64,000 bases of DNA from a virus, in the IMG/VR virus record IMGVR_UViG_3300036828_000142, positions 1 to 64,000 of that record, one strand, 5' to 3'. This document shows, one piece after another, positions 7,010-63,694 of this stretch. Position 1 is the first letter of the stretch; every line of letters begins with the position of its first letter. Below the pieces are notes generated by a model. The model was not told where the DNA came from, did not search any database, and saw nothing but the letters and a program-made list of their open reading frames with translations. A program made the position numbers and the translations under genes.

Positions 7010-7058
7010 CGAGCGCGATGGTATAGGCTCGTCTGAACCAACCGACCGAGGAGTCGCA

Positions 7059-7349: not shown

Positions 7350-7615
7350 TGCCACAGCCGCCAATCGACCCGAAGCGCCACCCGCCGGGGTTCGTTGTCA
7401 CTGACGCCGACGGCGTGCTGTGGCTGGTGCTCGACTCCGAGGGCAACGCGACACCCAACCCGGATGGGCAGGCGATCAGCCGCGAGACGTACCCCGAGCT
7501 GTGGGCTGTGATCGGCGAGACGTTCGGAAAGGGCGACGGCGAGACGACGTTCAACATCCCCGACTTCCGTGGTCGGATGCCGCCGCCGCGTGTGCATCCG
7601 GAAGACAAGCCATGA
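7349..7615 (+). CDS. Stand-alone phage tail-collar domain protein
   Basis: DGQAISRETYPELWAVIGETFGKGDGETTFNIPDFRGR matches the collar motif also present in ORFs 53635 and 62894. Confidence 0.75.
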   Translation: MPQPPIDPKRHPPGFVVTDADGVLWLVLDSEGNATPNPDGQAISRETYPELWAVIGETFGKGDGETTFNIPDFRGRMPPPRVHPEDKP

Positions 7616-10247: not shown

Positions 10248-11297
10248 GCGGCCCGCCGCCCGCCGATCTGATGGACTGGCCGAAGGCCGAGCTGGTTCGC
10301 GAGCTAGAGCGTCTGCGCGCTGTGATGCGCGAGCACTCCGAGCAACTGCACGATCCGGCGCGCAGCGGCGGCGACAGCGTCGGCGGCTCCCCGCACGGTC
10401 GGGGCGATTCGCTGCTGGACACGCGCGGAGCGGTGCTGCTCGACTACAACGAGGTGATCCTGGTGGACACCAAGCAGGTCGATGTTCCGTCGATGGCGAT
10501 GATTCTGGAGGGGCGCGTCAACTACTCCGCGCAGCGCGTCAAGCAGATGTACCTGTTCGGCCCTGACGGCGCGGCGGGGATCGTGACGCAGTTGTTCGGA
10601 CTCGCTGCGCGTGCTGGCGGGAGGTTCGCGGCAGAGTTCGCAACGTGCGTGGATCAGCGAAGCAAGGAGATGCCGTGAACGACACGCAGATGACGCTGGC
10701 TGGCAACACCGACGCGCAGGTGTGGGCGACCGAGTTCCTGAAGGTCATAGTCGATCAGTCCGTGACGATTGACGAAGGGCTGATGCTCGGCTGGTTCGCG
10801 AACGCGATCATGTCCGGCTACGACGAGGGTGTGCGCGCTGAGCGCAAACGCGGGTTCGATGACCGGGTTCGCGAGATCGCTTACCAGGCGGCTGGCGCGG
10901 GGGCGTGGGCGGTGATGCACGAAGCTCCGCACGTGGTGATGCCCGACCAGGCGGTCACCGAGGGCGTGGAAGCGATCCTCGCCGAGTTTGGTGTCAAGGG
11001 CCACAAGTCCGGCAGCTCGTGTTGCGGCGCGGAGATGCGACTGGAGACGGGCGACGACGGGATGGACTACGGCGTGTGCAGCGCCTGCGGGCGACCGGCG
11101 GACGGGAACGCATGAGCACAGTTAGCGAGCGGCCCGTGCCGACATCGAAGGGCTGCTGGTACTTCATCACGATCACGGAGTGCGTCCTGTGTGGCTATGG
11201 GACGGAGGACCGGGAGCGGCGCACTGACCCTCGTCCTGAGGATTGGAAGGATCGCCACAGGTATGTGCAGGATGCGTGCGGGTGGCATTTCGTATGA
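10244..11297 (+). CDS. Hypothetical proteins (10244-10678, 10675-11115, 11112-11297)
   Basis: Coupled overlaps; 10675 has DAQVWA.EF..MLGWFANAIM.G, recalled as a recurrent phage ORFan. Confidence 0.65.
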
Positions 11298-48500: not shown

Positions 48501-50424
48501 GCAGCTTGTCAGATCCATCAACACGCTGACGGACGCGCTGACGGGCCGCAACAGCTTGCAAAGCGCGCTGCAAGACGTGGGGACCGCGTTCGATGACACC
48601 AGCCAGAGCGCCCAGAACGACTGGCAGGCCATCGAGACGGCGACCAAGACCGCGCTGGACAACATCTCCGGGCAGCTCACGACAGCCAACGACACGCTCT
48701 CCAAGAGCTACGACACGCTCGTCTCGAACATCCAGAAGGCGATGAACAACGGGGTCAACGCCACCGAAGCCGGGGTCAACAAAATCTTCGAGGCGATGGC
48801 GAAGGCGTTCCAAACGCTTGGTGTCAGCACCAGCGCGTCGAAGCGTCTCTCGAAAGCCGGGTTTGGTGGCAAGGCGAAGAAGAACGCGACCGGAGGACGC
48901 CTCCCCGGCGAGCCCCAGGGTGACCACCTGCCGCTGCTCGGGCGCGGCGGGACTCTGCTCGGGATCGCCGACGGTGGCGAACTGGTCGTCAACCGGCACA
49001 CCGAGAAGCGCGTGGACTCGAAGCTCGCGGCGTACGGCACCACCCTCGGCCGCGAGGTCGCCGGAGAAACCAGGCCGCACTTCGCTGAGGGCGGGCGCGT
49101 CCCCGGCTACGCGACCGGCGGTGTCGTTGGCCAGGTGAACCAGTTCTTCAGCAAACGTGGGTGGAGCAAAGCGGCCATCGCGGGCATCCTCGGCAACGCC
49201 TGGCAGGAGTCCACCGGCAACCCGAACACGGCCGGTGGCGGAATGTGGCAGCAAATCTCCAACTTCGGCAGTGGAACCGGCGGCTCGCTGGAACACCAGA
49301 TGGAGACGATGTACCCGCAGATCGCGAGCCTGCGCGGGTCGATGAACTCCGCGACCCCGGCCGGAGCGGCAACGATCTTCGAGTCGCAGTTCGAGCGGGC
49401 CGGGATACCAGCGCTGTCGAACCGCATCCGCTACGCGCAGGAGGCGTTCGCGGGGAAGCTCGGCGCGGGACTGACCGGCGGCAGCGGGTCGTTCGCAGGC
49501 TCCGTCCCAACGATCAGAGCCCCGAAGATCGGCGGGTTGCTGCCAGGCGAGATTGCGCAGTTGGGCCAGCAGGGGATCAACCTGGTCGCCGCTGCCGCGA
49601 ACTCAACGATCCAGGCAGCGGGACTCCGGGCAGGCGGCGGCATGGGCGGCGCGGGCGCAGCACCAATGACCGGGCCGAAGGCGGTGCAGGCGATGGTCCG
49701 CGAGGCCGACAAGATCGCAAGCCGCCGGTACAACTACGAGTGGGGCGGCGGGCATGGTGCCATCGGTGTACCCGGCCACGGCACCGGCCACGGGTCAGGA
49801 CCCGGCGTTGGGTTTGACTGCTCAGGCACCGTCTCGGCGGTGCTGCACGCAGCGGGGCTGCTGAACACGCCGCTGACCTCCGGGCCGCTGATGAGCTGGG
49901 GTGCCCCCGGACCTGGCAAGCACGTCACGATCTGGGCGTCGCCGGTCCACACGTTCATGGCGATGAACGGCCACTACTTCGGCACCAGCGGCTCGAACCA
50001 AGGCGGCGGCGCTGGGTGGATCGGACAGTTCCCCGAGTCGATGCCCGCCGTTCGCCACCCGCCGGGGCTCGCGACGGGCGGACGGGTCAGCGACCGGTGG
50101 GCCGGGCTTGACCCCGTCGAACAGATGCGCCAGAAGCGCAACCCGTACGCGATCCTGCCCGACAAGGGGTTCGCGGGCGGTGGTCGCATCCCGTGGTTCG
50201 CGTCCGGCGCGGACTTCATCGCCCGGCGTCCGCAACTGATCGGGGTGGGGGACCATCCCAGCGGCGAGCGGGTTCAGGTCACGCCGCAGAACCAAAACCC
50301 CACGACGGGCCGTCCGGTCAGCATCACGATCCAGAGCATCGTCGTGAACCGCAAGGGTGACGTGAAGAAGATCGTGGACGAGGAGATGCGGCTGCTCGCG
50401 CAAAGCCTCGGAGGTGAGGCCTGA
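45589..50424 (+). CDS. Tape measure protein with phage tail lysozyme and NlpC/P60 domains
   Basis: 1611 aa, Ala/Gly-rich; AAIAGILGNAWQES...FERAG; YEWGGGH..FDCSG..H. Confidence 0.93.
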   Translation: MAVSLEATFILVDKASSKLKEIAAQAKLTDKALRDMGGGGSTGMAGYQRTFAPVTQGIGKITSATEDLNAATKDTQKTADDTSKTVRVLGMNFDRTRGLLSNLTSQFRKHRDESGRLSGIFKTLIGHVTNFGKGIDNAARNMLKNHPALVNFASSLGGVAGGVKGLVTALPLLATAAIAAAPAIVALGGAIGALAGSLSFAAGGGALLGGGLLGSFAVGLGSVVAVAKPAITQLTNYRKAVTQLQTAEQTGNVTAIKTAQTRLDAISKLNPGVQQLSQNLSGMEAAWKKATAPGRAAFFDLANTAIGTLRKNMGFFATEADKNTKAVADAFKKNLGPLVDTLKPMVTMLGSIFRTNLPGFMAGVTNIFRGLSNILKVLEPQLKTFGGGFDRMTKRFDEWTSSAKGRSSIKLMGEEFKQWGRILGGVARILGDVLGAGARASQGTIKNWADSIQKFANALGGKGGTKGVQNFFQEAMKNAGKLVKPLENIAKSLAQMYTIYKPFGNVLISVLGKFPPALITGLATVFLASKAAIGAKAGYSGVRGALSGFAGKGTPTDPMWVRIIGSGGSGLSGLTSTKEEAVAEQEAKGGFFSRMRSRVGGLFGRGTAAETAVSEAEPLLASGVAAEGGGLFSKLLGGAKGLFSGGALMRGLRGGATGLALSAGIPLVESLLPKGVKNVLNTKVGRGLTTVGTDAATGLAIGGPWGAAAGAALGGVQAMGWNPLSAKGRDKFVKDMGTMWGGIKKGAGAAWSGITSVAGTAAGFVKKHWEIAGALAGPIGLGVTEGIKHFGAIKKFASGIPSFFSHIFGGLAGIITAPFKAAFGFLSGLPSKIGGVAKNIGKAAWGGIKSGAQTVAHAASGGFHAATHAVGGAVSGGLHAISSFFGADGGRVPFSAPVLVGEAGPEVLHLPTGSRVTPLSGPHAGGSWPMFGMQTGSPVRLPQPGPTPGGGGLGGGLGGVLGVDLSPQGIGQLVRSINTLTDALTGRNSLQSALQDVGTAFDDTSQSAQNDWQAIETATKTALDNISGQLTTANDTLSKSYDTLVSNIQKAMNNGVNATEAGVNKIFEAMAKAFQTLGVSTSASKRLSKAGFGGKAKKNATGGRLPGEPQGDHLPLLGRGGTLLGIADGGELVVNRHTEKRVDSKLAAYGTTLGREVAGETRPHFAEGGRVPGYATGGVVGQVNQFFSKRGWSKAAIAGILGNAWQESTGNPNTAGGGMWQQISNFGSGTGGSLEHQMETMYPQIASLRGSMNSATPAGAATIFESQFERAGIPALSNRIRYAQEAFAGKLGAGLTGGSGSFAGSVPTIRAPKIGGLLPGEIAQLGQQGINLVAAAANSTIQAAGLRAGGGMGGAGAAPMTGPKAVQAMVREADKIASRRYNYEWGGGHGAIGVPGHGTGHGSGPGVGFDCSGTVSAVLHAAGLLNTPLTSGPLMSWGAPGPGKHVTIWASPVHTFMAMNGHYFGTSGSNQGGGAGWIGQFPESMPAVRHPPGLATGGRVSDRWAGLDPVEQMRQKRNPYAILPDKGFAGGGRIPWFASGADFIARRPQLIGVGDHPSGERVQVTPQNQNPTTGRPVSITIQSIVVNRKGDVKKIVDEEMRLLAQSLGGEA

Positions 50425-51614
50425 TGGCCGACTACGACCTCGGGACCGGCGCGGGGCTGCACTACATGGGGGTGGTCGAGAACTACAACGCGCTGCCGGA
50501 CACGGCCAAGACCGGACAGTGGTACGTCACGACCCACAACGTGATGTGGGTGTGGGAGGGCGCTGCTTGGCAGATCGCCGGGCGCTACAACCAGTACACC
50601 TGGGGGGCCCGCTACAAGGCGGGCATCGCGTCGGACCAGTATTACTTCAACCAGATCACGAAGGGCAAGAAGTCCTCCGCCGCCAAGCGCTACGAGCGCG
50701 AGGTCAAGGAAGGCAAGAAGCTGAGCCGCCGCGACCCGCCGCCAGCGCCAGCGGACGGGTTGAAGGTCATCCTGACGGGGATCGGCAACGGGCTGACGGT
50801 GGATCAGAACGGCCGGGCGCTGCTCCCCCAAGCGTTCGTGTTCCAGTGCTCCCCGCTGGAGCAGTACACGCTCGCGCACACGTTCAACTTCGGGACCTAC
50901 GACACCGTGGACGACGACCAGTTCGCGCGGCGTGGCTCCCGGCAGCTCAGCACCTGGCAGTTCGACACGATGGTGATGTACCTCGGCGCGACCGCACACG
51001 ACAAGCACTACCTGCCGGGCTGGGTGCCGTATCCGATCAAAGAACCGGGCGGGCAGCAGATGCAACGCCCCGAGTGGTATGTCGATCAGCTTCGCAACCT
51101 GTTCGTCGCCGGAGCACCGTTCCGCTACGTCGCGACGTTCAAGGGCTCGACCACGATCCACCGCACGTACGCGGTGCTGACCGCCTTCAACGAGGACTAC
51201 CGCCACGGTGAGGGCGACGCGATCTACCTGTCCGCCGTCAGCTTCATGGAGTGGCGCGACCCCAGAGGCACCCCGCCGCGCCACGGCGCGAGGCTCCCGG
51301 CGCACATCCGCTTCCGTGAGACAGGCGGGCGTTACCTCGCCTACGACGTGAAAACGAACCGGATGGTCAAGACCCGCTCGAAGACGAACGGCACGACGTT
51401 CATGGACCTCGCACGCGACTTCTACGGCGACGCGGGGGACTGGCGCACCATCGCGAAGGCGAACAAGTGCCACGGCGGCTCGGGCAGCCTCCCGATCTTC
51501 AAGCAGTGGTTCCCGCACCGCCTGGCGAAAGGCAAACCGAACGTCACCGTCGTCGTGCCGACCAGCCCGACCCGCAAACCCGCTGAGCGCCGGACGGCGC
51601 AGAAGAAGGGGTGA
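50424..51614 (+). CDS. Tail tube initiator/LysM-like baseplate protein (XkdP-like)
   Basis: Follows TMP; TFMDLARDFYGDAGDWRTIAKAN. Confidence 0.75.
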   Translation: MADYDLGTGAGLHYMGVVENYNALPDTAKTGQWYVTTHNVMWVWEGAAWQIAGRYNQYTWGARYKAGIASDQYYFNQITKGKKSSAAKRYEREVKEGKKLSRRDPPPAPADGLKVILTGIGNGLTVDQNGRALLPQAFVFQCSPLEQYTLAHTFNFGTYDTVDDDQFARRGSRQLSTWQFDTMVMYLGATAHDKHYLPGWVPYPIKEPGGQQMQRPEWYVDQLRNLFVAGAPFRYVATFKGSTTIHRTYAVLTAFNEDYRHGEGDAIYLSAVSFMEWRDPRGTPPRHGARLPAHIRFRETGGRYLAYDVKTNRMVKTRSKTNGTTFMDLARDFYGDAGDWRTIAKANKCHGGSGSLPIFKQWFPHRLAKGKPNVTVVVPTSPTRKPAERRTAQKKG

Positions 51615-51617
51615 GCG

Positions 51618-53270: not shown

Positions 53271-53638
53271 TGCTCCCACCAGAACCGTTCGTGCTCGACG
53301 CACGCCAGGCGCTGCTTGACGCCCAAGCACTGTTCGCGGGGTCGGCGGTGCCGCGCGGGTTCTTCGCCGTGAGCTGGTACGGCACCGCGACCTCCGACGA
53401 ACGCGGAAGCTTCGGGATCGTTGACCCGGTGATGGGGCTCGCTGACTGTGTGGGCGAGGTCGTGGAGGTGACGTACTCGTCGCTGTTCGTCCGCCAGGGC
53501 CAGAAGACCGTGCGGGTGTACGTGATCGGCTCCGAACAGAACCTCGGCACGGACCTCTCGATCACCCGGCGCTGCTACCTGGAGCTGGAGCGGCTCGCGC
53601 TCGACCCGATCAACGCGAGCGTCGGGATCGTGCAGTGA
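53270..53638 (+). CDS. Hypothetical baseplate-region protein
   Basis: Coupled ORF. Confidence 0.65.
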   Translation: MLPPEPFVLDARQALLDAQALFAGSAVPRGFFAVSWYGTATSDERGSFGIVDPVMGLADCVGEVVEVTYSSLFVRQGQKTVRVYVIGSEQNLGTDLSITRRCYLELERLALDPINASVGIVQ

Positions 53639-56600
53639 GCGGACGGCTGCAACTCAAAGACGCCCTGAAGTCCCACGGCGAGCAGATCACCCGCCGCCAC
53701 AAGTCCGTCCGCCGCGCGAACGTCACCGGGATCAACCCGCTGACGGTGGAGCTACAGGACCACGACGTGCCGCTGATCGAAGGCGAGGACTTCGAGCTGT
53801 CGCAGTGGGCCGAGGCGTACCAGACCTCCGTGAAGCTCGATGTCGGCGACGTGGTGCTGCTGCACATGGAGGAGCACGACTGGGTGCTGCTCGACATCGT
53901 GTCCGACAAGGACATCGGCACCATCGGCGGCAGCGGCAACGGCAAGACCGGACCGACAGGGCCAGCGGGCCCACGCGGACCGACCGGCGACCAGGGGATT
54001 CAGGGATACCAGGGAGCGACGGGACCGACCGGACCCGCCTCGAACGTCCCCGGTCCCACCGGACCAACGGGTCCCGGCTCGACGGTCCCAGGGCCCACGG
54101 GCCCAACCGGACCGACCGGCGGCACGGGACCGCAGGGCAACATCGGAGGAGGCTGGGCGGAGGTCAGCGGCACCCCACCAAACCCCAACACGCCCAACCC
54201 GGCCCCACCGATGGGGTACCTGTGGGTTGACTCCGCCGAGGCCGTCCAGACCGGCGACACTGGGCCCACAGGACCGACTGGGCCAACGGGTCCTCCGGGG
54301 ACGCCGGGCACGGCGGTGCTGATGGACAAGTGGCATTACGTCGGCGGGACGGGCGAGCCGACGTTCCAGAACGGCTGGACGAACTACAGCGGCTTCCAGT
54401 CAGCATCGTTCCGCAAGTACCCGGACGGCACGGTCCTGGTACGAGGGCTCGTGCAGAGCGGCACGGCCGCACCGTCGCTGATCTTCACCCTGCCGACCGG
54501 CTACCGCCCGCTGGGACGGCAGATTTTCGTCAACGACGCCAACTCGGACGTGCACGCCCGTGTCGATGTGGACGTGACCGGCGCGGTGACCTGGATGTTC
54601 GGCGGCACCAACGCCTACGTGGCGATCAACGCCTACTTCGACACCGAGTCGGTCACCTCGTGGCTGACCGGACCCCCAGGAGCGACCGGAGCGACCGGAC
54701 CTGCCGGGCCGACCGGCGCAGCCTCAACCGTGCCCGGACCAACGGGACCGACGGGTCCGACTGGAGCTACAGGCGCGATGGGACCGGCCGGACCGACCGG
54801 CGCAGCTTCGACAACGCCCGGTCCTCCCGGACCGACCGGCGGACCCGGACCGATAGGCGATACCGGACCAGCGGGACCAGCAGGAGGCCCGACAGGCCCG
54901 CCAGGGGGGACGGGACCTGCCGGACCCACAGGACCAACGGGTCCAACGGGGTCGGTTGGTACGTCCTACGCCGCACGACTTACTAGAAGCGCGAGCATCA
55001 CCACCTCGGCCAATGTCTGGCAACGAGTTCCGTTTGACGCGACTGATTTCGATAGCACCTCGTCCGTGCAGATTGCTAACAGCCGGTACGTCTGCCCAAT
55101 AGCCGGGACATACGACGTGACTGTCACCGTTGGAGTCGGTGCGACAGGAGGCTCCCCGAATACGGTCGTGGCCGCTCTGTACAAGAACGGCGCACTTGAC
55201 TCGTTCGGCACCCAACAGCAGGCTGCCAGCACAAACCAAACGATCTCGGCTGTCTACGCAGGCAGCACGCACTGCAACGCGGGGGATTACCTCGAAGGGT
55301 GGACGTACACCAACGCCGCGCTCCCGCTTTACACCGGCGGCTACACGCACATGGAGGTGGCGCTCACGAGCGGCGGCGGACCCACCGGGCCGACCGGCCC
55401 GCCAGGACCAACCGGACCGGCGGGCACAGGCACCACGGGCATCTCGGGCGCGTACGTCGAGGTGGTCGCCGTACCGCCTGACGCCAACAACCCGAAGCCC
55501 GCCCCGCCAGAGGGGTATCTGTGGCTCGACACGTCCGACGTTGCCGCGACCAGGCCGGTGTACGACACCGACCAGATCGGGACCGTCAAGTCGTTCAGCG
55601 GTCAGACGATCCCGGTGAACTGGCTGCTCGCCGATGGAAGCTCGCTGCCGCGCGGCAGCTACCCAGACCTGTTCGCCGCTATCGGCACCACCTACGGGTC
55701 GGTGGACGGCACGCACTTCAATCTGCCTGACCTGCGCAACCGGTTCATCTACGGAGCGAACACTCTGAGCGCGGCAGGCGGGGTGGGCGGCGAGACGACG
55801 CACACGCTGTTGGCGAGTGAGGTGCCCTCGAACTTCGCTTCCAGCGCGCAGTCAGTTTGGAACGCCATATCAGGGGCAGCGCCCCCAGCGGGATCGACCT
55901 ACTGGTACCCGTTGGTGCCCGCTGCTAATGGGGTGACTCAGGGCGGCGGCGCGGCGCACAACAACCTGCCGCCGTACGTGCTGATGGCGCAGATCATCAA
56001 GGCCACCGGGGTGCAGCTCGACTCGGGCTCCGCGCTCGTTGGAGCGACGGGGAAGCGCGGGGCGATTTGGTACATGTACAACGGCACCGGCACGCCGTCT
56101 GCTGGCACGTTCGCGGGGGAACTTGACGGGGATTGGTGCATCCGCAAGACGGACGGGGAGAACTTCGAGCGCGTCGGCGGCGTGTGGGTAGACCAGGGGT
56201 TCACCAACCGGACCACGGCAACAGTCTCAGCGGCGCGGGCCAACCACCAGGCAGCGTTCACGATCTCTACTGCGAACACCTGGATGAAGGTTCCGCTCGA
56301 CACGTTGCAGTTCGATACCACGGGCAGCAGCATGGTGCAGCTATCGAACGGACGGATCGTCTGCCCCGTGGCTGGCTGTTATCAGGTCGAGGGGCAACTG
56401 ATGATCAACAACGCAGCAAGCAGCGGGAATCGTGTCCTGGTGGGGGTTGGAAAGAACGGCACGGTATTGAGCGAGGCCGGAGCTACTCCTCCGGCTGGGT
56501 GGATGGACCCGTGCGTCGCTGATGTGGTTCAGTGCAACGCGGGCGACTACTTTGAACTGTTCGCGTACGCGAACACCGCCGGTACAGCGCTTTACACCGC

Positions 56601-57114
56601 TGCTGGGAACACGCAGGTCAACTACTTGTCTGTCGCGCTGATCTCGGCAGGACCAGGGCCGCAGGGACCGCAGGGACCGCAGGGCACCATGTACTCAACG
56701 CAGCGCGTCCTCGGCAAGAGCGGCGCTTTGCAAAACGTCACGTTCGACGCAACCGTGTCTGACGGAGCAGGTGGCCTGATGCAGTTGTCGATCACACCCA
56801 CCATCCCGGTGTGGTGGGAAGTCTCGGGCCAGGTTGGCTACGTGCTGAAGGTGGACGCTGCATACAACTACCTGTGCGGCTCGCTGAACCTGTCGCCCAC
56901 CGACCAGGACGGGCAGTCCGCGATGTACCAGTACGTCGAGCAGCACAACTCGGTCAACAAGTTCGAGGGTCGTTCGGTCACGCACCTCTATCGGCTGTCG
57001 GCTGGGACGACCTACACCGTGGCCCTGAGGCTCGGTAACTCCGACGGCGGGACTTGGCAGTATTACTCAGGCCCATCGCAGCTCTTGTTGACCGGGAAGG
57101 CGTGGGCACAGTGA
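53635..57114 (+). CDS. Spike/fibre protein: N-terminal spike-like OB domain, collagen, C1q-like domains, tail collar
   Basis: VTGINPLTVEL..LDVGDVVLL; GPT repeats; two ..CNAGDY.E modules; collar motif. Confidence 0.85.
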   Translation: MSGRLQLKDALKSHGEQITRRHKSVRRANVTGINPLTVELQDHDVPLIEGEDFELSQWAEAYQTSVKLDVGDVVLLHMEEHDWVLLDIVSDKDIGTIGGSGNGKTGPTGPAGPRGPTGDQGIQGYQGATGPTGPASNVPGPTGPTGPGSTVPGPTGPTGPTGGTGPQGNIGGGWAEVSGTPPNPNTPNPAPPMGYLWVDSAEAVQTGDTGPTGPTGPTGPPGTPGTAVLMDKWHYVGGTGEPTFQNGWTNYSGFQSASFRKYPDGTVLVRGLVQSGTAAPSLIFTLPTGYRPLGRQIFVNDANSDVHARVDVDVTGAVTWMFGGTNAYVAINAYFDTESVTSWLTGPPGATGATGPAGPTGAASTVPGPTGPTGPTGATGAMGPAGPTGAASTTPGPPGPTGGPGPIGDTGPAGPAGGPTGPPGGTGPAGPTGPTGPTGSVGTSYAARLTRSASITTSANVWQRVPFDATDFDSTSSVQIANSRYVCPIAGTYDVTVTVGVGATGGSPNTVVAALYKNGALDSFGTQQQAASTNQTISAVYAGSTHCNAGDYLEGWTYTNAALPLYTGGYTHMEVALTSGGGPTGPTGPPGPTGPAGTGTTGISGAYVEVVAVPPDANNPKPAPPEGYLWLDTSDVAATRPVYDTDQIGTVKSFSGQTIPVNWLLADGSSLPRGSYPDLFAAIGTTYGSVDGTHFNLPDLRNRFIYGANTLSAAGGVGGETTHTLLASEVPSNFASSAQSVWNAISGAAPPAGSTYWYPLVPAANGVTQGGGAAHNNLPPYVLMAQIIKATGVQLDSGSALVGATGKRGAIWYMYNGTGTPSAGTFAGELDGDWCIRKTDGENFERVGGVWVDQGFTNRTTATVSAARANHQAAFTISTANTWMKVPLDTLQFDTTGSSMVQLSNGRIVCPVAGCYQVEGQLMINNAASSGNRVLVGVGKNGTVLSEAGATPPAGWMDPCVADVVQCNAGDYFELFAYANTAGTALYTAAGNTQVNYLSVALISAGPGPQGPQGPQGTMYSTQRVLGKSGALQNVTFDATVSDGAGGLMQLSITPTIPVWWEVSGQVGYVLKVDAAYNYLCGSLNLSPTDQDGQSAMYQYVEQHNSVNKFEGRSVTHLYRLSAGTTYTVALRLGNSDGGTWQYYSGPSQLLLTGKAWAQ

Positions 57115-60100
57115 GCCCCGTCCTCAAATACTGGGATGCGGCGAGCAGTGCGTACCTGCCCGTCAGCATCGCGGGACCACCCGGACCGACCGGGCCGATT
57201 GGACCTCCGAACATCCAGGGGGTGCTGACCGACCCGTCGCAGCTTCCGGCGAACGGCAACACTGGTGACGCCTACGTGGTGCTCCGCACCGCTCCGGGCG
57301 GCCCAGGACCTACGGGACCGACCGGACCAACAGGACCTCCTGCGACCGTTGCGGTCACGGCCGCGCGGGGGTACCGGAACACTGCGTTTACGCTCGTGGC
57401 GAGCGGGAACAGCTACATACCGTTGGACACGGCGAGCTTCGACACGGGCGGGATGCTCGACCTGCCGAACGGACGCATCGTCGCGAAGGTCGCGGGCTAC
57501 TACGCGGTTGAAGCGAATCTCTACTTCTCTGCCGCTGCCAGCGGCTGCGTCGTCACGATAACGAAGAACCACGCCCAACAGATGACGGTAGGCGTGAATA
57601 CGCCAGGGCAGGTTTCCTCGACTGCGGCCGATGTCCTTTACCTCAACGCTGGGGATTACCTCGAACTGAGCTGCTACAACCAGGGCGCTGCGGTAGCCGT
57701 AACGAACGTTGCTGGCGGCAACTACCTCGCGGTGACAATGATCACCGCAGGCGCGGGACCGGTAGGCCCGACCGGAGCGACAGGGGCGACCGGGCCAGCC
57801 GTCACCCCGCCGTCGGTCGTTGCAGCACACGCCTACCGAGCCGCTGCGTACACGCTGACCTCCCAGGCGTGGCAGGCGATCCCGCTTGACACCAAGGCAT
57901 ACGACACCGGGAACAACTTCAACACGGCCACCGGCAAGTTCGTCGCTCCGGTGGCGGGCTACTACCTGTGCACCGGGATGGTGGGGTCCACGCCGGGTAC
58001 GACGGGAATCCTTGTCGGGCTTCAGCTCAACTCGACCACGCCTGCTACTCGTGGCTCGGCCGCAGCCGCTGTTGGTGCCCCGCTCGGGATCATGGCGGGC
58101 AACGTCGCCGAGGTGATCCACTGCAACGCGGGGGATACGCTCGCACTGGCGTGCTTCCCGGCGGCAGGTGACGTGCTCTACAGCGGGACTGCTGCCACGT
58201 ACCTGACGGTGGTGCTGATCACCGCTGGTGCGGGACCCACCGGACCCGTCGGACCAGCATCGACGGTCCCAGGACCTACTGGTCCCTCGGGGCCTACCGG
58301 TCCAGGAGCTAGCGGGCTGAAGCTCGTGCGGCCAAACGCCAACTACCTGGCGCGACCGAACGATCTCGTGGTCCCGAACAGCAGCATCACCGTCACGCTC
58401 CCCGACGACACGAGCAACGGCGGGTCCGGCACGGTGCCAGACGGGGCGATCATCCAAGTGGTGGGCAACTCCGACTACGGGCAGTGGATCTCGCTGGCGG
58501 TCGAGGGTTACAGCGGGATCTACGGCCCCGACAGTGCGCCGATCAACTACCTGCAAGGCCGGTGGTCGCAGAGCTACACGTTCCTGTATTCCCTCAGTGA
58601 CGCGATGTGGATGGTGCTCGACACCACCGTGCCCGCGATGGGTGTTGCGCAGGTGCAATCCCCGGCAGGAACGGGAGCGGCCGTGCAGGCTCGCGTCGGC
58701 GACTTGGTGATGCCTCGTGGCACGGGTGCGACTGTGACGCTGCCGTCGGGCGGGACGGTCGCTGGCTACACGACGGCGTACACGGGCTCGGTGGTCGAGG
58801 TCGTTGCGCTCGCGGACAACGTGCCTGTCACGCCCGCGCGATCCAACGACCCGCTGGTCCTGCTCGACGGCACCATCTTGCCTGCGGGCGCGGCGTACAC
58901 GGTGCCGATGGGTACGAGCGCGACCTTCCAGTGTGCTGCTGGCTGGGGTCGCTGGCAGGTCGTGAGGCAATCACAGCCGCCCGTGTCGTTCGGTATGACC
59001 GCACCCAACCCCCGGAACGGGTCCACGGTATGGGTGCAAGGGCAGCCAACCGCTCTGTCGGCGATCCAGACCATTGGTGCGAACTCGGCCAGCGGTACGT
59101 CCGTATCGTTGGGCACCCACCAGCCGGGGGACATGATCATCATGGTCGCGCGGCGGGCGAACAACACGCCGCCAACGATCCCGGCTGCGGGCGGCACCGT
59201 GCCGCCGTGGACGCAGATTTTCGGGGCTACCGGCGTGAACACCCTGAGCCACGTCGTCGCCTTCACGATTGCGACAGCCAGCAACCATACGTCGGGCACG
59301 TGGACGAACGCGGCCAACGTCGGGATGATGGTGTTGCGCGGCAACCGTGCGCTGAGCATCGGGGCGAGCGCCTCGGGCTCGGGCGCGACTTCCGCCGTCA
59401 CCTTCCCAGCGCTGACGTTGCAAAGAGCCGACGGCACATCGTGGGGTCTGCGTATCCACAACCGGGCCGGGACCGGTAACACGATGGTGAACCCGCCTGC
59501 GCCGTGGCTGAACGTGTGGACGCAGCCTTCCGGTTCAAGCGCCCTCCTGGGACTGTGGGTCGCGGCACCGATCAGCGCCAACCCGACCGCCGACCTGGTG
59601 ACGGGCGGGTCGAACGCTGCGTGGGAGGCCGACACCATCGAGATCCTCGTCGCGCCGCCACCGACACCGCCCGTGCCGGTGCTCAACCTGTGGGATGGGC
59701 TGAAGTGGGAGGTGGCGTCGCCGTCCGGCACAGCGAGCGGCGACCTGGGTGGAAGCTACCCGAGCCCGACGCTGGCGATTCCCCGCGCCAGATCAAAGAC
59801 GCTCTCCATTCCGGCTTCGATGACGAATGGCAGTGTGACCGTCACGACTTCGGGGTGGACGCTGGGCAACGGCATGGCGGTCAGCGGCAACGGCATCGCA
59901 GTTCCACGCGCCGGTTATTACAGAATCTGGGGCCAAGTCACGATTGCACCCGTGGCTTCGGGTACTGGTGCCTACATACAGCTCACACCACAACTGAACG
60001 GAGCCAACACCCAAGATGGCATCGGCACAATGGCGCTCACCCCGAACACTTCATACGCCAGCGTGACCTGTTTCGATGAGGTCCACTGCAACGCTGGCGA

Positions 60101-60188
60101 CGTGCTGACGCTCCAGTTCACCAACGCAACGGGTGTAGCGCTCAACTCAAACGGCGGCGTGTTTGTCGCGGAGTATGTGGGGCAATGA
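57111..60188 (+). CDS. Tail fibre protein with collagen and C1q-like domains
   Basis: GTG at 57111; GPT repeats; three C1q/TNF-like modules. Confidence 0.85.
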   Translation: MSPVLKYWDAASSAYLPVSIAGPPGPTGPIGPPNIQGVLTDPSQLPANGNTGDAYVVLRTAPGGPGPTGPTGPTGPPATVAVTAARGYRNTAFTLVASGNSYIPLDTASFDTGGMLDLPNGRIVAKVAGYYAVEANLYFSAAASGCVVTITKNHAQQMTVGVNTPGQVSSTAADVLYLNAGDYLELSCYNQGAAVAVTNVAGGNYLAVTMITAGAGPVGPTGATGATGPAVTPPSVVAAHAYRAAAYTLTSQAWQAIPLDTKAYDTGNNFNTATGKFVAPVAGYYLCTGMVGSTPGTTGILVGLQLNSTTPATRGSAAAAVGAPLGIMAGNVAEVIHCNAGDTLALACFPAAGDVLYSGTAATYLTVVLITAGAGPTGPVGPASTVPGPTGPSGPTGPGASGLKLVRPNANYLARPNDLVVPNSSITVTLPDDTSNGGSGTVPDGAIIQVVGNSDYGQWISLAVEGYSGIYGPDSAPINYLQGRWSQSYTFLYSLSDAMWMVLDTTVPAMGVAQVQSPAGTGAAVQARVGDLVMPRGTGATVTLPSGGTVAGYTTAYTGSVVEVVALADNVPVTPARSNDPLVLLDGTILPAGAAYTVPMGTSATFQCAAGWGRWQVVRQSQPPVSFGMTAPNPRNGSTVWVQGQPTALSAIQTIGANSASGTSVSLGTHQPGDMIIMVARRANNTPPTIPAAGGTVPPWTQIFGATGVNTLSHVVAFTIATASNHTSGTWTNAANVGMMVLRGNRALSIGASASGSGATSAVTFPALTLQRADGTSWGLRIHNRAGTGNTMVNPPAPWLNVWTQPSGSSALLGLWVAAPISANPTADLVTGGSNAAWEADTIEILVAPPPTPPVPVLNLWDGLKWEVASPSGTASGDLGGSYPSPTLAIPRARSKTLSIPASMTNGSVTVTTSGWTLGNGMAVSGNGIAVPRAGYYRIWGQVTIAPVASGTGAYIQLTPQLNGANTQDGIGTMALTPNTSYASVTCFDEVHCNAGDVLTLQFTNATGVALNSNGGVFVAEYVGQ

Positions 60189-62230
60189 GCAGCGGCAATC
60201 TATACGTGGGGGATCTCTACATCCGGGAGGGTGGCACCTGGCAGGAGGCCGGGCTAATCCAGGGCGGACCTGGACCGTCTGGACCGACTGGGCCGACGGG
60301 ACCGGCCGGTCCGTCGAGCCTGGGGCTGTCCTATGCGGCCAGGGCGTACCGCGCGGGGGCGTTCACAGTGAGCACAGGCAGCGCCTGGACCGCCATCCCG
60401 GTGGACACCATCAGCCACGACGCCAACGGCTGCATTGCCACCAACAACGGCTGGTACACATGCCCGGTGGCCGGGGTCTACGACGTGGCCGTCAACCTAT
60501 ACATCAACACTCCTGGCACGACCTACGTCAACCAGGCGGTCGGCATCTTCCTGAACGGCTCTGTAGTCAGCATGTTCAACATCGACGTAGCGATGAGTTC
60601 GTACGGCGGACTGAGTCATTCCGACAAGATCAAGTGCAACGCGGGCGACCGCCTGCAACTGGCGGCGTTCATCTCGTCCGCACCACAGGCACTGCTTATC
60701 AACGGGGCCTGCAACTTCCTGTCCGTGTCGCTCGCGAGCGGCGGCGGACCCACTGGACCCACCGGACCGGCGGGAGGGCCAGCAGGCCCAACGGGACCGA
60801 CAGGACCGACCGGCCCGGCTGCAACGACGACCGCCGCGCGGGCGTATCGCCAGGCGGCGTTCACCACCACCGCAAGTTGGACGAAGGTGCCGCTGGATAC
60901 CGCCAGCTTCGACACCCAGGGCAACATGCTCAACCTCGTGAACGGCCGGATCGTCTGTCCGGTGGCAGGCATCTACGCGGTGGACGCGAACCTTCTCGTC
61001 CCAACCAGCGCTACCGGGACGTATACCAACATCGCTGTCGGGATCAACAAGAACGGCAGCCAGATCGCGCAGAACTACTCCACGCCTGCGATTGCGAACT
61101 TCGGGTCAGCAACGATCTCGGACAAGGTTCAGTGCAACGCTGGGGACTACCTCGAACTGTTCGTAATCGACTCGCAGGGCGGCGCGCTATGGCAAGGCTC
61201 GCCAGCGAACTACCTGTCCGTCGCGCTGCTCACAGCGGGGCAAGGACCGACAGGACCAGCGGGACCGGCGGTAGGACCAACAGGCCCGACTGGACCGACT
61301 GGGCCGACGGGTCCGCCAGCGACCGTCACAGTCACGGCGGCGCGCGCATACCGGAACGCGGCGTTCACGCTTCCTGCTGGAGCGTGGACGAAGATTCCGC
61401 TGGACACTGCCAACTACGACGTGGCCAACAACATGCTGAACCTTGTCAACGGCCGATTGGTGTGTCCGACGACAGGGCTCTACGACATTGCTGCTATGGC
61501 CCAGCTAAACATGCCGGGGACCGCCACGCAAGTAACTATGGGCGCTGCGATCTACAAGAACGGTGGCGTGGTTACGGAGTCGGCGTCCATCGTCACGATG
61601 TCGGGCTACGCAACTGCTGTTGTCTCCGACAAGATCCAGTGCAACGCAGGGGATTACCTCGAACTGTGGGCGTACAACCAGCAAGGTCTGGGTGTCGGGG
61701 CCTATACGATGACTACGTTCCTCGCGGCGGCGCTGATCACAGCGGGCGCAGGACCGCCTGGCCCGCCGGGACCGCCCGGTGGGGTGCAGCCAGCGATGAG
61801 GATGACGCTTGCGAACAGCATGGCGATAGCGCTGAACGTCGCGACGATGCTTGCGTTCGACACTCCCGGTTGGGCGCAGGGCGGAATGATCCGCTCGCCG
61901 AACGGTGGCTTCATCGTGCCGGTCGCTGGGGTCTACCAGGTCATCTGCAACATGCTCTGGAACACAGACATCGCGACTGGGCGCGTGGACTACATGATCG
62001 TCAACTACACCCAGCAGGGGCTGGCTGGTGGCGACGTATCCAGCGCCTTTGGCGGCGGCGGCATTTTCGCTCACGTCAACGGCCAGTATCAGTCGAGTAG
62101 TTTCTCCGGGCTCGTACAAGCCAACGCGGGCGATGTGCTCGGCGTGGTGCTGATGAACCGTGCGGGGGCGGGGACGATCTACGGCGTCGGTAACTGGACG
62201 ATGGCGCACTGTGTCCGAGTGAGCAGCTAA
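60185..62230 (+). CDS. Collagen/C1q-like repeat fibre protein (4 modules)
   Basis: AARAYR..F...W..PLDT...CPVAG.Y...CNAGDYLEL repeats separated by GPT runs. Confidence 0.85.
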   Translation: MSSGNLYVGDLYIREGGTWQEAGLIQGGPGPSGPTGPTGPAGPSSLGLSYAARAYRAGAFTVSTGSAWTAIPVDTISHDANGCIATNNGWYTCPVAGVYDVAVNLYINTPGTTYVNQAVGIFLNGSVVSMFNIDVAMSSYGGLSHSDKIKCNAGDRLQLAAFISSAPQALLINGACNFLSVSLASGGGPTGPTGPAGGPAGPTGPTGPTGPAATTTAARAYRQAAFTTTASWTKVPLDTASFDTQGNMLNLVNGRIVCPVAGIYAVDANLLVPTSATGTYTNIAVGINKNGSQIAQNYSTPAIANFGSATISDKVQCNAGDYLELFVIDSQGGALWQGSPANYLSVALLTAGQGPTGPAGPAVGPTGPTGPTGPTGPPATVTVTAARAYRNAAFTLPAGAWTKIPLDTANYDVANNMLNLVNGRLVCPTTGLYDIAAMAQLNMPGTATQVTMGAAIYKNGGVVTESASIVTMSGYATAVVSDKIQCNAGDYLELWAYNQQGLGVGAYTMTTFLAAALITAGAGPPGPPGPPGGVQPAMRMTLANSMAIALNVATMLAFDTPGWAQGGMIRSPNGGFIVPVAGVYQVICNMLWNTDIATGRVDYMIVNYTQQGLAGGDVSSAFGGGGIFAHVNGQYQSSSFSGLVQANAGDVLGVVLMNRAGAGTIYGVGNWTMAHCVRVSS

Positions 62231-62240
62231 AGGAGATCGC

Positions 62241-62897
62241 ATGATCCTCGCCCAACTCGACCTCGATCAAGACCCGGCCGTGGTTCTGGTGCTCTACGAC
62301 TACGCGAACGACACTCCGCCGTCGAACATGGTCGAGCCCGAATACGTGGACGTGACCGACGTGAGCCCGATGCCGCAGCCGGGGTTCACGTACGACGGCG
62401 AAACGTGGACTCCGGGGGTTCCGCAACAGCGAGCGGACAACCGCGACTCCATCGAGAACGAGCTGCGCAAGGAGCACGCAGCCAACGAAGCGTTCCTCGT
62501 CTTGGAAGCGCCCACCAGCGACGAGCTGGCCGCGCAGGTGACCGCGCTGACGGTGCAGTGCCAGGGGTTCATCCGCACCTCGTTGCAGGAGTACGACGAA
62601 ACCGTTCCGCCGCCAGCGCGAGTTCCCGGCGAGCGCGCTCTCGATTCCGTGAGCCCGAGCGAAGGTCCAGCCGCAGGCGGTACCGAGGTCACGCTGCGCG
62701 GCTCCGGGTTCACGAACATTGGCGGGGTCAGGTTCGAGGGAGTCGGGCAGACGGGCTGGGCGTGGTCGTTTGAGGTTGTTGACGACGAGACGATCACGTG
62801 CCCCACGCCGCCGATGCCGGTCGGAACGGTGGACGTGATCGCGTTTGACGGCGATCCCGGTGACGCGGTGCTGGAGAACGGGTTCACATACACATGA
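62241..62897 (+). CDS. IPT/TIG-domain protein
   Basis: SVSPSEGPAAGGTEVTLRGSGF...ITCPTP..GTVDV...FTY. Confidence 0.85.
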   Translation: MILAQLDLDQDPAVVLVLYDYANDTPPSNMVEPEYVDVTDVSPMPQPGFTYDGETWTPGVPQQRADNRDSIENELRKEHAANEAFLVLEAPTSDELAAQVTALTVQCQGFIRTSLQEYDETVPPPARVPGERALDSVSPSEGPAAGGTEVTLRGSGFTNIGGVRFEGVGQTGWAWSFEVVDDETITCPTPPMPVGTVDVIAFDGDPGDAVLENGFTYT

Positions 62898-63694
62898 GCC
62901 CCGTAATGAAATACTGGGACGAGAACGCCCAGGCGTACGTCGAGCTGGGGCTACGCGGCGTTCAAGGTCCGCCAGGTCCCGCAGGTGACGCGATCCCAGC
63001 GGGGCACATCATGGCGTTCGGGGGCGTGTCTCCTGCGACCGGGTGGCTGATGTGCGACGGCTCGGCGGTGCTGCGCTCCGCGTACCCGGCGCTGTTCGCC
63101 GCGATCTCCACTCGGTTCGGCGCGGGCGATGGCTCGACCACGTTCAATCTGCCGAACCTCCAGGACCGCGTGCCGGTCGGTGCCAGCGGCACCAAGGCGG
63201 TCGGGTCTACGGGGGGCGAATCGGCGCACACGACCACCATCACCGAGTTGCCCTTGCACAGCCACAACGGGGTGACGGCTGGTGGTACGACCGGCGGCGG
63301 CACGTCGGGCAACACCGACGTGGACCACTACCACGCGGGCACCACCAACGCCGCCGACCGCAGCCTCGCGCACGACCACACGCTCGGCAACAACGCCTGG
63401 GCGACCCTGTTCGACCGGGTTGTCGGCTCTGGCAACTACGCGCAGCTCCAGACCGTCAGCGGCGGCGCTGCCTGGTGGAGCGGCGCGAACTGGACCAACG
63501 GACAGTCCATCTCAATCGACCACCTCCACTCGTTCACGACGAACTGGCAGTCGCAGCAGTACGCCACGAACAACCACAGCCACTCGATCCCCGGCCTGTC
63601 GGTACCGGGGCTTGGTATCGCTGCGCAGGGGGGTGGCGCGGCCCACAACAACATGCAGCCGTACGTCGCGATGAACTACGTCATCAAATACTGA
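62894..63694 (+). CDS. Tail-collar fibre protein with His-x-His needle
   Basis: GWLMCDGSAV.R..YP.LF...TTFNLP; HSH/HDH repeats; HNNMQPY...YVIK. Confidence 0.9.
   Translation: MSPVMKYWDENAQAYVELGLRGVQGPPGPAGDAIPAGHIMAFGGVSPATGWLMCDGSAVLRSAYPALFAAISTRFGAGDGSTTFNLPNLQDRVPVGASGTKAVGSTGGESAHTTTITELPLHSHNGVTAGGTTGGGTSGNTDVDHYHAGTTNAADRSLAHDHTLGNNAWATLFDRVVGSGNYAQLQTVSGGAAWWSGANWTNGQSISIDHLHSFTTNWQSQQYATNNHSHSIPGLSVPGLGIAAQGGGAAHNNMQPYVAMNYVIKY

What the first reader, a model, noticed from the sequence alone, without database searches (positions are those of the whole stretch)
50424..62960. Plug-and-socket split domains that could assemble a branched multi-protein fibre
Seen: the small fibre-joint domain normally reads '...P....G.[WY]..' followed directly by 'L..W.G..W'. 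It is intact in ORF 50424 (GVVENYNALPDTAKTGQWYVTTHNVMWVWEGAAW) and once in ORF 53635 (GTPSAG..DGDWCIRKTDGENFERVGGVW). Elsewhere it is split. ORF 53635 has two first halves only (PNPAPPMGYLWVDS ~54154-54237; PKPAPPEGYLWLDT ~55450-55540), while exactly two downstream proteins start with the missing half (57111 MSPVLKYWD...Y; 62894 MSPVMKYWD...Y). ORF 57111 has a different first half (IQGVLTDPSQLPANGNTGDAYVV ~57211-57282), and ORF 60185 starts with its complement (GDLYIREGGTWQEAGLIQG). Within 57111 a further pair (FGMTAPNPRNGSTVWVQ ... PVLNLWDGLKW) is split by an inserted domain. Inference: beta-strand complementation in trans gives a coded docking hierarchy (spike-fibre to B and D; B to C), building a branched receptor-binding tree. 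I know no description of this mechanism.
Basis: partly seen in the sequence, partly recalled or inferred. Interest (0 to 1): 0.78.

Follow-up and report, generated by a model that had tools for sequence, protein, structure and literature searches.

The report
Plug-and-socket joints in phage fibres
An uncultured soil phage and many distant relatives encode tail-fibre proteins that start with a small conserved hairpin, always near a fibre protein carrying a matching half-domain, so the fibres probably clip together into a branched, many-tipped receptor-binding structure, although binding itself has not been shown.

Summary

The main fibre protein (53635-57114) carries two half-motifs ("sockets"). 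Two downstream fibre genes (57111, 62894) begin with the other half ("plugs").

The pairing recurs outside this phage:
- In pattern scans of viral contigs that did not require an N-terminal position, all 16 fibre-type matches lay directly after a start codon.
- 12 of 17 evaluable plug genes have a socket in the gene immediately upstream.
- 9 of 9 evaluable socket genes from the reverse scan are followed by a plug gene within two genes.
- Genes carrying both a plug and a socket are always followed by another plug gene (4 of 4). Chain-ending genes lack the socket.
- Same-chain versions exist with a domain inserted between the two halves (L175, and the window's own 57111 gene).

Counts are not always one to one. 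Three loci pair one open socket with three small paralogous plug genes.

The B-to-C joint (57111 to 60185) uses a second motif type that is split only in this lineage, so it is weakly supported.

Strand complementation is inferred, not shown. The complex prediction gave no verdict.

The closest known systems are the KP32-type branching domain with docking peptide, and the strand-donating attachment of DT57C LtfA.

The scan has noted similar joints on other DNA (e1-6130229, e1-5888351, e1-5983120).

The parts
53635..57114 (+). Main fibre protein A (1159 aa): N-terminal anchor, collagen-like runs, C1q/BclA-like domains, tail-collar domain, two sockets and one uninterrupted motif copy
   Evidence: ORF. 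Pfam Collar 2.6e-20 and Collagen 1.2e-9. BclA chain 1wck 1.7e-10. 76% identical homologue in L001.
54145..54234 (+). Socket 1: short strand, proline-rich loop and second strand, followed directly by collagen repeats with no second half
   Evidence: row 2 of alignment A1. Conserved in L001/L034.
55447..55536 (+). Socket 2: same element, close to the consensus of 24 sockets, followed by the tail-collar domain
   Evidence: row 1 of A1; invariant V22, P27, P36, P37, G39, W42, D44. Absent from the L004 homologue, where collagen runs straight into the collar domain.
56059..56199 (+). Uninterrupted four-strand copy of the motif within protein A
   Evidence: Conserved in L001 and L004.
57111..60188 (+). 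Fibre protein B (1025 aa from the GTG at 57111): plug, collagen, first half of the second motif type, C1q-like domains, a same-chain split pair around an inserted domain, C-terminal TNF/C1q-like domain
   Evidence: GTG start overlaps the stop of A by 4 nt. Homologues in L001/L034 and L018.
57111..57164 (+). Plug of B: N-terminal hairpin peptide of about 17 residues
   Evidence: Row 1 of alignment A2. 28.0 bits for the L009 relative. The same peptide class begins fibre genes in more than 20 contigs.
57213..57281 (+). First half only of the second motif type, running straight into collagen repeats
   Evidence: The L034 relative is the only fibre-type hit that lacks the second half.
59013..59069 (+). 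First half of the same-chain split pair in B
   Evidence: AF2 gives strands here, but pLDDT is only about 52-55.
59070..59675 (+). Domain inserted between the two halves (beta-rich, no solved relative found)
   Evidence: phrog_13352 2.1e-20. Standalone homologue gp62 of Mycobacterium phage prophiT49-3. AF2 pLDDT about 90. No PDB fold match; best E 0.07.
59676..59714 (+). Second half (hairpin) of the same-chain split pair in B
   Evidence: AF2 strands 259-262 and 267-270 of the segment, pLDDT 65-69.
60185..62230 (+). Fibre protein C (681 aa): N-terminal hairpin of the second motif type, collagen runs alternating with four C1q/TNF-like domains
   Evidence: (C1q 6e-10). ATG overlaps the stop of B.
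60185..60265 (+). N-terminal hairpin of C that matches the missing second half of the motif at 57213-57281
   Evidence: The only N-termini of this kind among the viral loci held come from the window's own lineage.
62241..62897 (+). IPT/TIG-domain protein directly upstream of the second plug gene. In L161 the same domain is fused in front of a plug. In L175 it lies between a socket and a plug in one chain.
   Evidence: Pfam TIG 1.3e-10. L161 and L175 read.
62894..63694 (+). Fibre protein D (266 aa): plug, short collagen run, tail-collar domain
   Evidence: (Collar 9.3e-22). Homologue in L018.
62894..62947 (+). Plug of D
   Evidence: Row 2 of A2. 29.0 bits. ATG overlaps the upstream stop by 4 nt.
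50469..50582 (+). Uninterrupted copy of the second motif type at the N-terminus of the protein that follows the tape measure
   Evidence: phrog_3904 tail fibre match over residues 8-55.

Best explanation
The fibres of this contractile-tailed phage are probably assembled from separate trimeric proteins joined by a split mini-domain.

The acceptor (socket) is a roughly 30-residue element inside a fibre protein. It consists of a short strand, a proline-rich loop and a second strand, and it lacks the hairpin that completes the unit in uninterrupted copies. The donor (plug) is a hairpin of about 17 residues at the very N-terminus of the next fibre protein.

My reading is that the plug hairpin pairs with the open socket. 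The main fibre A would then carry B at one socket and D at the other, and each arm would end in C1q/TNF-like or collar-type receptor-binding domains.

By analogy with L161 and L175, socket 2 may take the IPT-associated D and socket 1 may take B. This assignment is a guess. C probably joins B through a lineage-specific split of a second, related motif.

Shown:
- The modules exist and are conserved.
- The plug is N-terminal.
- Socket genes and plug genes follow a consistent gene order.
- Same-chain versions exist.

Inferred:
- Physical binding.
- Strand pairing.
- Stoichiometry, and which plug goes to which socket.
For: 1. N-terminal position. Two DNA pattern scans of viral contigs did not require an N-terminal position. 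In fibre-like proteins they found the plug only directly after a start codon: 16 of 16 matches in 14 loci. The one different case is L032, an internal tandem repeat. A plug profile run against 18,141 open frames of the viral loci gave 32 distinct matches of 19 bits or more, all N-terminal. The best internal fibre-like matches scored 11.4, 10.6 and 5.4 bits. The profile was built from 30 of these N-termini, so only the lack of internal matches is informative.

2. Sockets upstream of plugs. There are 20 plug genes in those 14 loci, and 17 have enough upstream DNA to judge.
- 12 have a socket in the gene immediately upstream.
- 3 lie behind a paralogous plug gene or one small knob gene in an array that follows a socket gene.
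- 2 show no socket in the DNA held (L066, L018).

3. Plugs downstream of sockets. The reverse scan with the socket pattern gave fibre-type sockets in new contigs. All 9 with enough downstream DNA have a plug or plug variant. It is the next gene in 7 and lies after one small knob gene in 2.

4. Chain order. All 4 evaluable genes carrying both plug and socket are followed at once by another plug gene (L025, L056, L064, L075). The last gene of each chain lacks the socket.

5. Matching counts. Socket and plug counts are 2 and 2 in the window, L025 and L075. They are 1 and 1 in nine further loci.

6. Versions with the halves in one chain or a shifted gene break. One L175 gene reads socket, IPT-like insert, plug, second socket, knob. 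In L161 the gene break lies between the socket and the IPT-plug. The window's gene B has a same-chain pair around a 200-residue insert.

7. The L004 homologue of protein A lacks both sockets, so they are optional inserts.

8. AF2 of a plug-plus-socket knob protein (L025 gene 2, 119-row alignment) gives the plug as a hairpin with pLDDT 76-84. The socket region is unstructured with pLDDT about 60, as expected for an element that needs a partner. The knob matches gC1q domains with target TM 0.85.

9. Precedents read in passages:
- KP32 branching domain with a 29-residue N-terminal docking peptide (PMC13352976).
- DT57C LtfA N-terminal strands added to the sheets of LtfC (PMC10713586).
- Mysterious gp35/36/37 heterotrimer, whose N-terminal hairpin arms clamp a strand-forming loop of the distal tail protein (PMC13252515).
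Against: - No direct evidence of binding exists.
- Counts are not always equal. L062, L198 and L175 have one open socket and three small paralogous plug genes. L194 has four plug genes and one visible socket. L066 has a plug gene with no socket in the 2 kb upstream.
- In L120, L146 and L198 a small knob gene separates the socket gene from the plug gene.
- In genes carrying both, the plug lies only 15-40 residues before the gene's own socket, so pairing within one chain cannot be excluded. AF2 did not predict it.
- The plug profile does not detect the second half of short uninterrupted copies. The homology of plug and second half therefore rests on pattern resemblance and on the L175 and L161 forms.
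- The AF2 model of the same-chain pair in gene B has low confidence on both halves, pLDDT 47-69.
- Many of the contigs come from related soil metagenomes, so the loci are not fully independent.
- Public gene calls start both window plug genes downstream of the plug.
Confidence: 0.6

Rival explanations
1. The plug is a self-contained N-terminal trimerisation or collagen-nucleating hairpin cap, working like a foldon. The socket is an unrelated neck element placed before knob domains. They occur together only because fibre cassettes are duplicated in tandem.
For: - 22 of the 30 plug N-termini in A2 run straight into collagen-like repeats (my count).
- AF2 folds the plug as a hairpin on its own with pLDDT 76-84.
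- Uninterrupted copies of the related second motif type sit between collagen runs in about 45 fibre-type hits, as expected of registration units.
- The resemblance to the fibritin foldon hairpin is recalled from memory, not from a call.
Against: - About 8 of the 30 plugs are not followed by collagen.
- This reading does not explain why the socket is present exactly in genes that are followed by a plug gene and absent from chain-ending genes.
- It does not explain the same-chain socket-insert-plug genes.
- A profile of the second motif type found no fibritin or foldon chain in the PDB at E up to 10.
Confidence: 0.2
2. The plug is a docking peptide, but its partner is something other than the socket, for example the knob of the upstream protein, an IPT/TIG protein or a baseplate protein. 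The socket has another role, such as a hinge or a glycosylated proline-rich neck.
For: - L066 has a plug gene with no socket in the 2 kb upstream.
- Some loci have more plug genes than sockets.
- IPT/TIG domains sit next to plugs in the window, L161 and L175.
- Arrays of small knob proteins carry a different short N-terminal peptide and have no visible acceptor.
Against: - The upstream knobs are of varied kinds (C1q-like, collar, others), while the plug is nearly invariant.
- The socket is the only conserved element shared by all upstream partners.
- Chain-ending genes lack it.
Confidence: 0.12
3. The half-motifs are only recombination joints: conserved sequence at module borders that lets phages swap fibre cassettes, with no structural pairing.
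For: - Fibre genes are mosaic. Protein A is 76% identical to its L001 homologue while neighbouring genes are much closer, and the C1q modules differ.
- The plug lies exactly at gene starts.
Against: - The peptides are conserved at the protein level across G+C 0.42-0.68 with different codons. DNA-level linkers do not predict this.
- The socket lies 150-250 residues before the gene end, not at a border.
Confidence: 0.05

Closest known systems
Branched receptor-binding protein systems of Klebsiella podophages KP32, K11 and KP34: branching domain of RBP1 plus conserved N-terminal docking peptide of RBP2 (PMC13352976, passages read; PMC6872550, search listing and abstract only)
   Same: A second fibre or spike protein is attached to a first one through a short conserved N-terminal peptide. 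The peptide is modular, and the genes are adjacent.
   Different: - The acceptor there is a T4 gp10-like domain. No such domain was detected here by Pfam or PHROGs.
- Here the acceptor is a roughly 30-residue half-motif in a collagen-like fibre.
- Chains of three proteins occur here.
- The hosts and phage types are unrelated.
[quoted passage not shown]
   Same: A fibre is attached by donating N-terminal beta-strands to an incomplete sheet of the acceptor, giving a branched fibre.
   Different: - The acceptor is a dodecameric collar protein on the tail, not another fibre.
- No sequence similarity was tested or seen.
- How LtfB joins LtfA is not resolved in that paper.
Mycobacteriophage Mysterious gp35/gp36/gp37 heterotrimeric inner fibre, whose N-terminal hairpin arms clamp a strand-forming loop of the distal tail protein (preprint PMC13252515, passages read)
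   Same: - Small paralogous fibre proteins of about 200 residues with an N-terminal hairpin that pairs with a strand of the acceptor.
- Three paralogues form one trimer. This is the reading I propose for the gene triplets in L062, L175 and L198.
   Different: - The acceptor is the distal tail protein.
- tblastn of a plug and of a socket against 50,697 cultured phage records found nothing, so there is no detectable sequence relation.
Collagen-like fibres with C-terminal C1q/TNF-like heads (Bacillus BclA, PDB 1wck; gC1q domains)
   Same: Collagen repeats followed by a jelly-roll trimeric head.
   Different: BclA is a single chain type with no docking modules. Here several such units are chained and branched.

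Membership tests
KP32-type branched RBP system (branching domain plus docking peptide) | The primary RBP carries a T4 gp10-like branching domain | tested here: not met
   No such family among the Pfam or PHROGs matches of proteins A-D. The conserved acceptor element has no Pfam domain in 16 of 16 database relatives.
KP32-type branched RBP system (branching domain plus docking peptide) | The secondary RBP starts with a conserved peptide shared among phages | tested here: met
   30 N-termini aligned in A2, with invariant Y7 and D9 and near-invariant M2, L5, W8, Y15. All are N-terminal.
KP32-type branched RBP system (branching domain plus docking peptide) | The peptide is required for incorporation of the second RBP and binds the first RBP | not testable with these tools
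   Needs deletion mutants, pull-downs or a structure.
Fibre attachment by strand donation (DT57C LtfA-LtfC type) | N-terminal strands of the fibre extend a beta-sheet of the acceptor | not testable with these tools
   Only secondary structure of single chains could be obtained.
Collagen-like fibre with C1q/TNF-like head (BclA-like) | Gly-X-Y repeat runs | tested here: met
   Pfam Collagen 1.2e-9 in A. 9, 4 and 1 collagen runs in A, B and D.
Collagen-like fibre with C1q/TNF-like head (BclA-like) | Jelly-roll C1q/TNF-like globular domain after the collagen run | tested here: met
   Pfam C1q 7.4e-9 (B) and 6e-10 (C). BclA chain 1.7e-10 for A. The modelled knob of the L025 relative matches gC1q with target TM 0.85.
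Phage tail collar domain proteins (PF07484) | Match above the curated cut-off | tested here: met
   72.6 bits in A and 77.2 bits in D against a cut-off of 24.
Fibritin foldon-like hairpin trimerisation unit | Sequence relation of the hairpin motif to fibritin or foldon chains | tested here: not met
   A profile of 20 uninterrupted copies of the second motif type found no fibritin or foldon chain in the PDB at E up to 10. The best hit was phiKZ gp184, E 0.0041. The resemblance is recalled only.

The most novel reading that the evidence does not exclude
A large clade of uncultured soil phages builds its receptor-binding apparatus as a chain written in gene order. Each fibre protein ends its shaft in an open half-domain, and the next protein's N-terminal hairpin completes it. 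A knob then branches off at every joint. Where three small paralogous plug genes follow one socket, they would form a C1q-like heterotrimer that docks as one unit. This would be a general split-domain assembly code for branched fibres, distinct from the T4 gp10-like branching domains.
Probability: 0.4. Interest if true: 0.75.

Novelty: new variant of a known kind. Interest (0 to 1): 0.6.

Why it matters
If the joints work as proposed, they give a simple rule, readable from sequence, for which fibre protein sits on which in a large group of uncultured phages.

It would add a second kind of docking pair, unrelated in sequence, to the branching-domain system now used to engineer Klebsiella phage host range. 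It could be tested directly with short peptides and fragments.

It would also explain how collagen-like phage fibres display several different C1q-like and collar-type heads at once.

Tried and rejected
Steps that led nowhere:
- Complex prediction. Three copies of socket 2 (alignment A1) were folded with three copies of the plug of B (alignment A2). The result was "no answer": scores 0.29 and 0.13 against a mark of 0.32, and the controls were not run. It counts neither for nor against binding.
Genomic context for database proteins such as P0002, P0009 and P0113 could therefore not be fetched. I used DNA pattern scans instead.
- Cultured phages. Megablast of the region found nothing. tblastn of A and B found only collar or inserted-domain matches below 60% identity. 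tblastn of a socket and of a plug found nothing. The low-complexity filter and the short queries may hide matches.
- Prophages. It held no fibre-type N-terminal plug, so there is no host information.
- Solved structures. Searches with protein 50424, protein A, the socket profile and a short uninterrupted copy gave nothing useful for the motif.
- Foldon idea. It came from memory and was not supported by the profile search.
- AF2 of the same-chain pair in B. Confidence on both halves was too low to use. The inserted domain had no fold match.
- One search was a mistyped, out-of-frame pattern, and that scan was wasted. It was repeated correctly.
- L004, a homologue of A without sockets, ends at its contig end. 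Whether that phage lacks plugs could not be seen.
- Earlier scan notes could not be linked to this system by sequence.

Literature. Six searches found no description of this split motif. That is not proof that none exists. Supplementary files were not consulted.

Full report
**Setting**

The window is bases 1-64000 of a 72,422-base viral record. G+C is about 0.66, and no close relative exists among 50,697 cultured phage records.

The tail is contractile. Sheath, tube, sheath initiator, baseplate J and Mu gp48-like proteins flank the region.

After the tape measure (45589-50424) come, in order:
- a 396-residue protein (50424);
- a YQBQ-like hub protein (51618);
- a 1159-residue fibre protein A (53635), with collagen runs, C1q/BclA-like domains and a tail-collar domain;
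- fibre B (57111, 1025 residues);
- fibre C (60185, 681 residues);
- an IPT/TIG protein (62241);
- fibre D (62894, 266 residues, collar domain).

**The observation**

I separate two related motif types.

Type 1 has a first half that I call the socket. It is a short strand, a proline-rich loop of about 15 residues and a second strand. Its second half, the plug, is a hairpin of about 17 residues.
- Protein A has two sockets without a second half (54145-54234 and 55447-55536) and one uninterrupted copy (56059-56199).
- B and D each begin with a plug (57111-57164, 62894-62947).
- Both plug genes start with a 4-nt overlap on the upstream stop codon.

Type 2 is the motif that is uninterrupted in ORF 50424 (50469-50582).
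- B has its first half only (57213-57281).
- C begins with its second half (60185-60265).

B also holds a same-chain pair around a 200-residue insert (59013-59069 and 59676-59714).

The core patterns occur 2 and 2 times in the genome and never in shuffles. Those patterns were chosen after the fact.

One caveat: public gene calls start D four codons later and B 104 codons later. Conservation of the plug elsewhere argues for the upstream starts.

**Relatives of the window phage**

L001/L034 (protein A 76% identical) and L018 keep the sockets, the plugs and the type 2 halves. L004 has a homologue of A in which both sockets are missing and collagen runs directly into the collar domain. The sockets are therefore optional inserts. 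That contig ends inside the gene, so its plugs cannot be checked.

**Plug-first test**

I scanned viral contigs with back-translated plug patterns that say nothing about position in a gene (giving 29 and 97 stretches). Most hits were unrelated proteins of cyanophage-like contigs, where the pattern is internal.

In fibre-like proteins the pattern lay directly after a start codon in 16 of 16 matches, in 14 loci with G+C from 0.42 to 0.68. The one different case is L032, an internal tandem repeat of a related short motif.

Counting variants, these 14 loci hold 20 plug genes. Three are too near a locus end to judge. Of the other 17:
- 12 have a socket in the gene immediately upstream;
- 3 lie behind a paralogous plug gene or one small knob gene in an array that follows a socket gene (L062 twice, L120);
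- 2 show no socket in the DNA held. In L066 a peptidase-like gene lies upstream. In L018 the socket gene would lie beyond the locus.

**Socket-first test**

The reverse scan with a socket pattern (82 stretches) returned four kinds of hit:
- the same loci as before;
- unrelated out-of-frame or other-family hits;
- a few short uninterrupted copies (L138, L139, L166/L206, L171);
- fibre-type sockets in new contigs.

Nine of the new contigs have enough downstream DNA, and all nine have a plug or a plug variant.
- It is the next gene in L151, L161, L163, L175, L194, L199 and L207.
- It follows one small knob gene in L146 and L198.

L144, L172 and L177 end too soon to judge.

The 24 sockets align with seven invariant positions. 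The 30 plugs align with two invariant and four near-invariant positions.

**Chain order and counts**

Four genes carry a plug followed by their own socket (L025, L056, L064, L075). Each is followed at once by another plug gene. The last gene of each chain has a plug but no socket.

Socket and plug counts are 2 and 2 in the window, L025 and L075. They are 1 and 1 in L061, L126, L151, L199, L207, L161, L163, L120 and L146.

The rule is not strict.
- L062, L198 and L175 each have one open socket followed by three small paralogous plug genes of 143-177 residues with a short collagen run.
- L194 has four plug genes behind one visible socket at its contig start.

I suggest that the triplets form one mixed trimer, as C1q chains do and as reported for gp35/36/37 of phage Mysterious (PMC13252515, passages). 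This is an inference only.

**Same-chain and shifted versions**

- In L175 one gene reads collagen, socket, IPT-like domain, plug, second socket, knob.
- In L161 the gene break falls after the socket gene, and the next gene reads IPT domain, plug, collagen, knob.
- In the window the IPT protein (62241) and the plug protein D (62894) are separate genes.
- B's own same-chain pair surrounds an inserted beta-rich domain. That domain is a stand-alone minor tail protein in Mycobacterium phage prophiT49-3. In database relative P0287 it is again followed by a plug-like hairpin and collagen.

These forms are the best evidence that socket and plug are two parts of one unit, in which a domain or a gene break is tolerated between the second and third strand.

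**Structure predictions**

A plug-plus-socket knob protein (L025 gene 2) has 1316 relatives at E up to 0.001 among 1.84 billion cluster representatives.

With a 119-row alignment, AF2 gave mean pLDDT 86:
- the plug is a hairpin (strands 5-8 and 13-16, pLDDT 76-84);
- the socket region is coil with pLDDT about 60;
- the knob is confident.

The knob matches gC1q domains with target TM 0.85, and it also matches knob domains of phage phi812 and cyanophage fibres.

So the plug does not fold onto its own socket in the single-chain model, and the socket looks unfinished on its own. This is suggestive, not proof.

The model of B residues 600-905 is confident only for the inserted domain. The one complex job returned no verdict and is listed under Tried and rejected only.

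**Type 2 and the B-to-C joint**

A correctly framed scan for the type 2 first half gave about 45 fibre-type hits. By my reading, all continue with the second half in the same chain, usually between collagen runs. The script's own flag was too strict. The only exception is the window's relative L034.

A search of all viral loci held for N-termini that begin with a type 2 second half followed by collagen found only the window's lineage.

The complementarity of B and C is therefore real, and they are adjacent genes. But it rests on one lineage, and C's N-terminus could be a self-sufficient hairpin.

**What is known**

- Docking of a second receptor-binding protein through a conserved N-terminal peptide onto a branching domain is established for KP32-type phages (PMC13352976, passages).
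- Attachment by strand donation is seen for DT57C LtfA on LtfC (PMC10713586, passages).

The general principle is therefore not new. What differs here:
- the acceptor is a half-motif of about 30 residues with no Pfam family, and all 16 database relatives are unnamed;
- the setting is collagen and C1q-like fibres;
- chains run three proteins deep in gene order.

Six literature searches found no description of it.

Earlier notes of this scan describe look-alike split joints in other genomes (e1-6130229, e1-5888351; e1-5983120). I could not connect them by sequence, and they are not independent evidence.

**Verdict**

- The plug-and-socket reading is the best explanation for A to B and A to D (confidence about 0.6) and a weaker guess for B to C.
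- The main rival is that the plug is a self-trimerising cap.
- I class the system as a new variant of a known kind, of moderate to high interest, and directly testable with fragments and peptides.

Noticed in passing
L062 (reverse strand, about 6525-7830), L198 (about 8887-10409), L175 (about 7449-8905): In three separate loci one open socket is followed by exactly three small paralogous plug genes (143-177 aa) with a short collagen run and a shared C-terminal ending. They may form a mixed trimer, as C1q chains do.
   Followed up: partly
L199, L151, L207, L120, L146, L198; proteins P0146-P0281: Arrays of small (about 185 aa) C1q-like knob proteins share a different, shorter conserved N-terminal peptide followed by a proline-rich linker. 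About 60 of the 150 best representatives belong to this class. Their acceptor is unknown.
   Followed up: no
L144, L146, L151, L199, L207; proteins P0123-P0133: Many socket-bearing proteins begin with another conserved N-terminal module that contains an uninterrupted type 2 motif. The gene before them starts with a similar one. This may be a further docking class.
   Followed up: no
window 62241-62897 and G000 63708-64166: Two paralogous proteins end in an IPT/TIG domain. The first lies directly before plug gene D. In L161 the same domain is fused to a plug.
   Followed up: partly
window 59070-59675: The beta-rich domain inserted in fibre B has no solved structural relative (best Foldseek E 0.07). 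It occurs as the N-terminal domain of many unnamed proteins and as stand-alone gp62 of Mycobacterium phage prophiT49-3.
   Followed up: partly
window 57111 and 62894: Public gene calls start both plug genes downstream of the plug (921 instead of 1025 aa, and 262 instead of 266 aa). Automated annotation would therefore hide the plug.
   Followed up: yes
G000 69512-69931 (beyond the window): A small ORF directly after the last collar-type fibre gene (68367-69497) looks like a homing endonuclease. It was seen only in the ORF list. Earlier scan note e1-6208417 also flags it.
   Followed up: no
L004 6605-7981: The homologue of ORF 50424 in this relative replaces the N-terminal motif copy with tandem tryptophan-rich repeats that resemble carbohydrate-binding modules.
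   Followed up: no
PDB 8y6v chain I (phiKZ gp184): This is the only solved chain weakly matched by the type 2 profile (E 0.0041). It is a beta-rich minor capsid protein on the inside of the phiKZ capsid vertex, not a fibre.
   Followed up: partly
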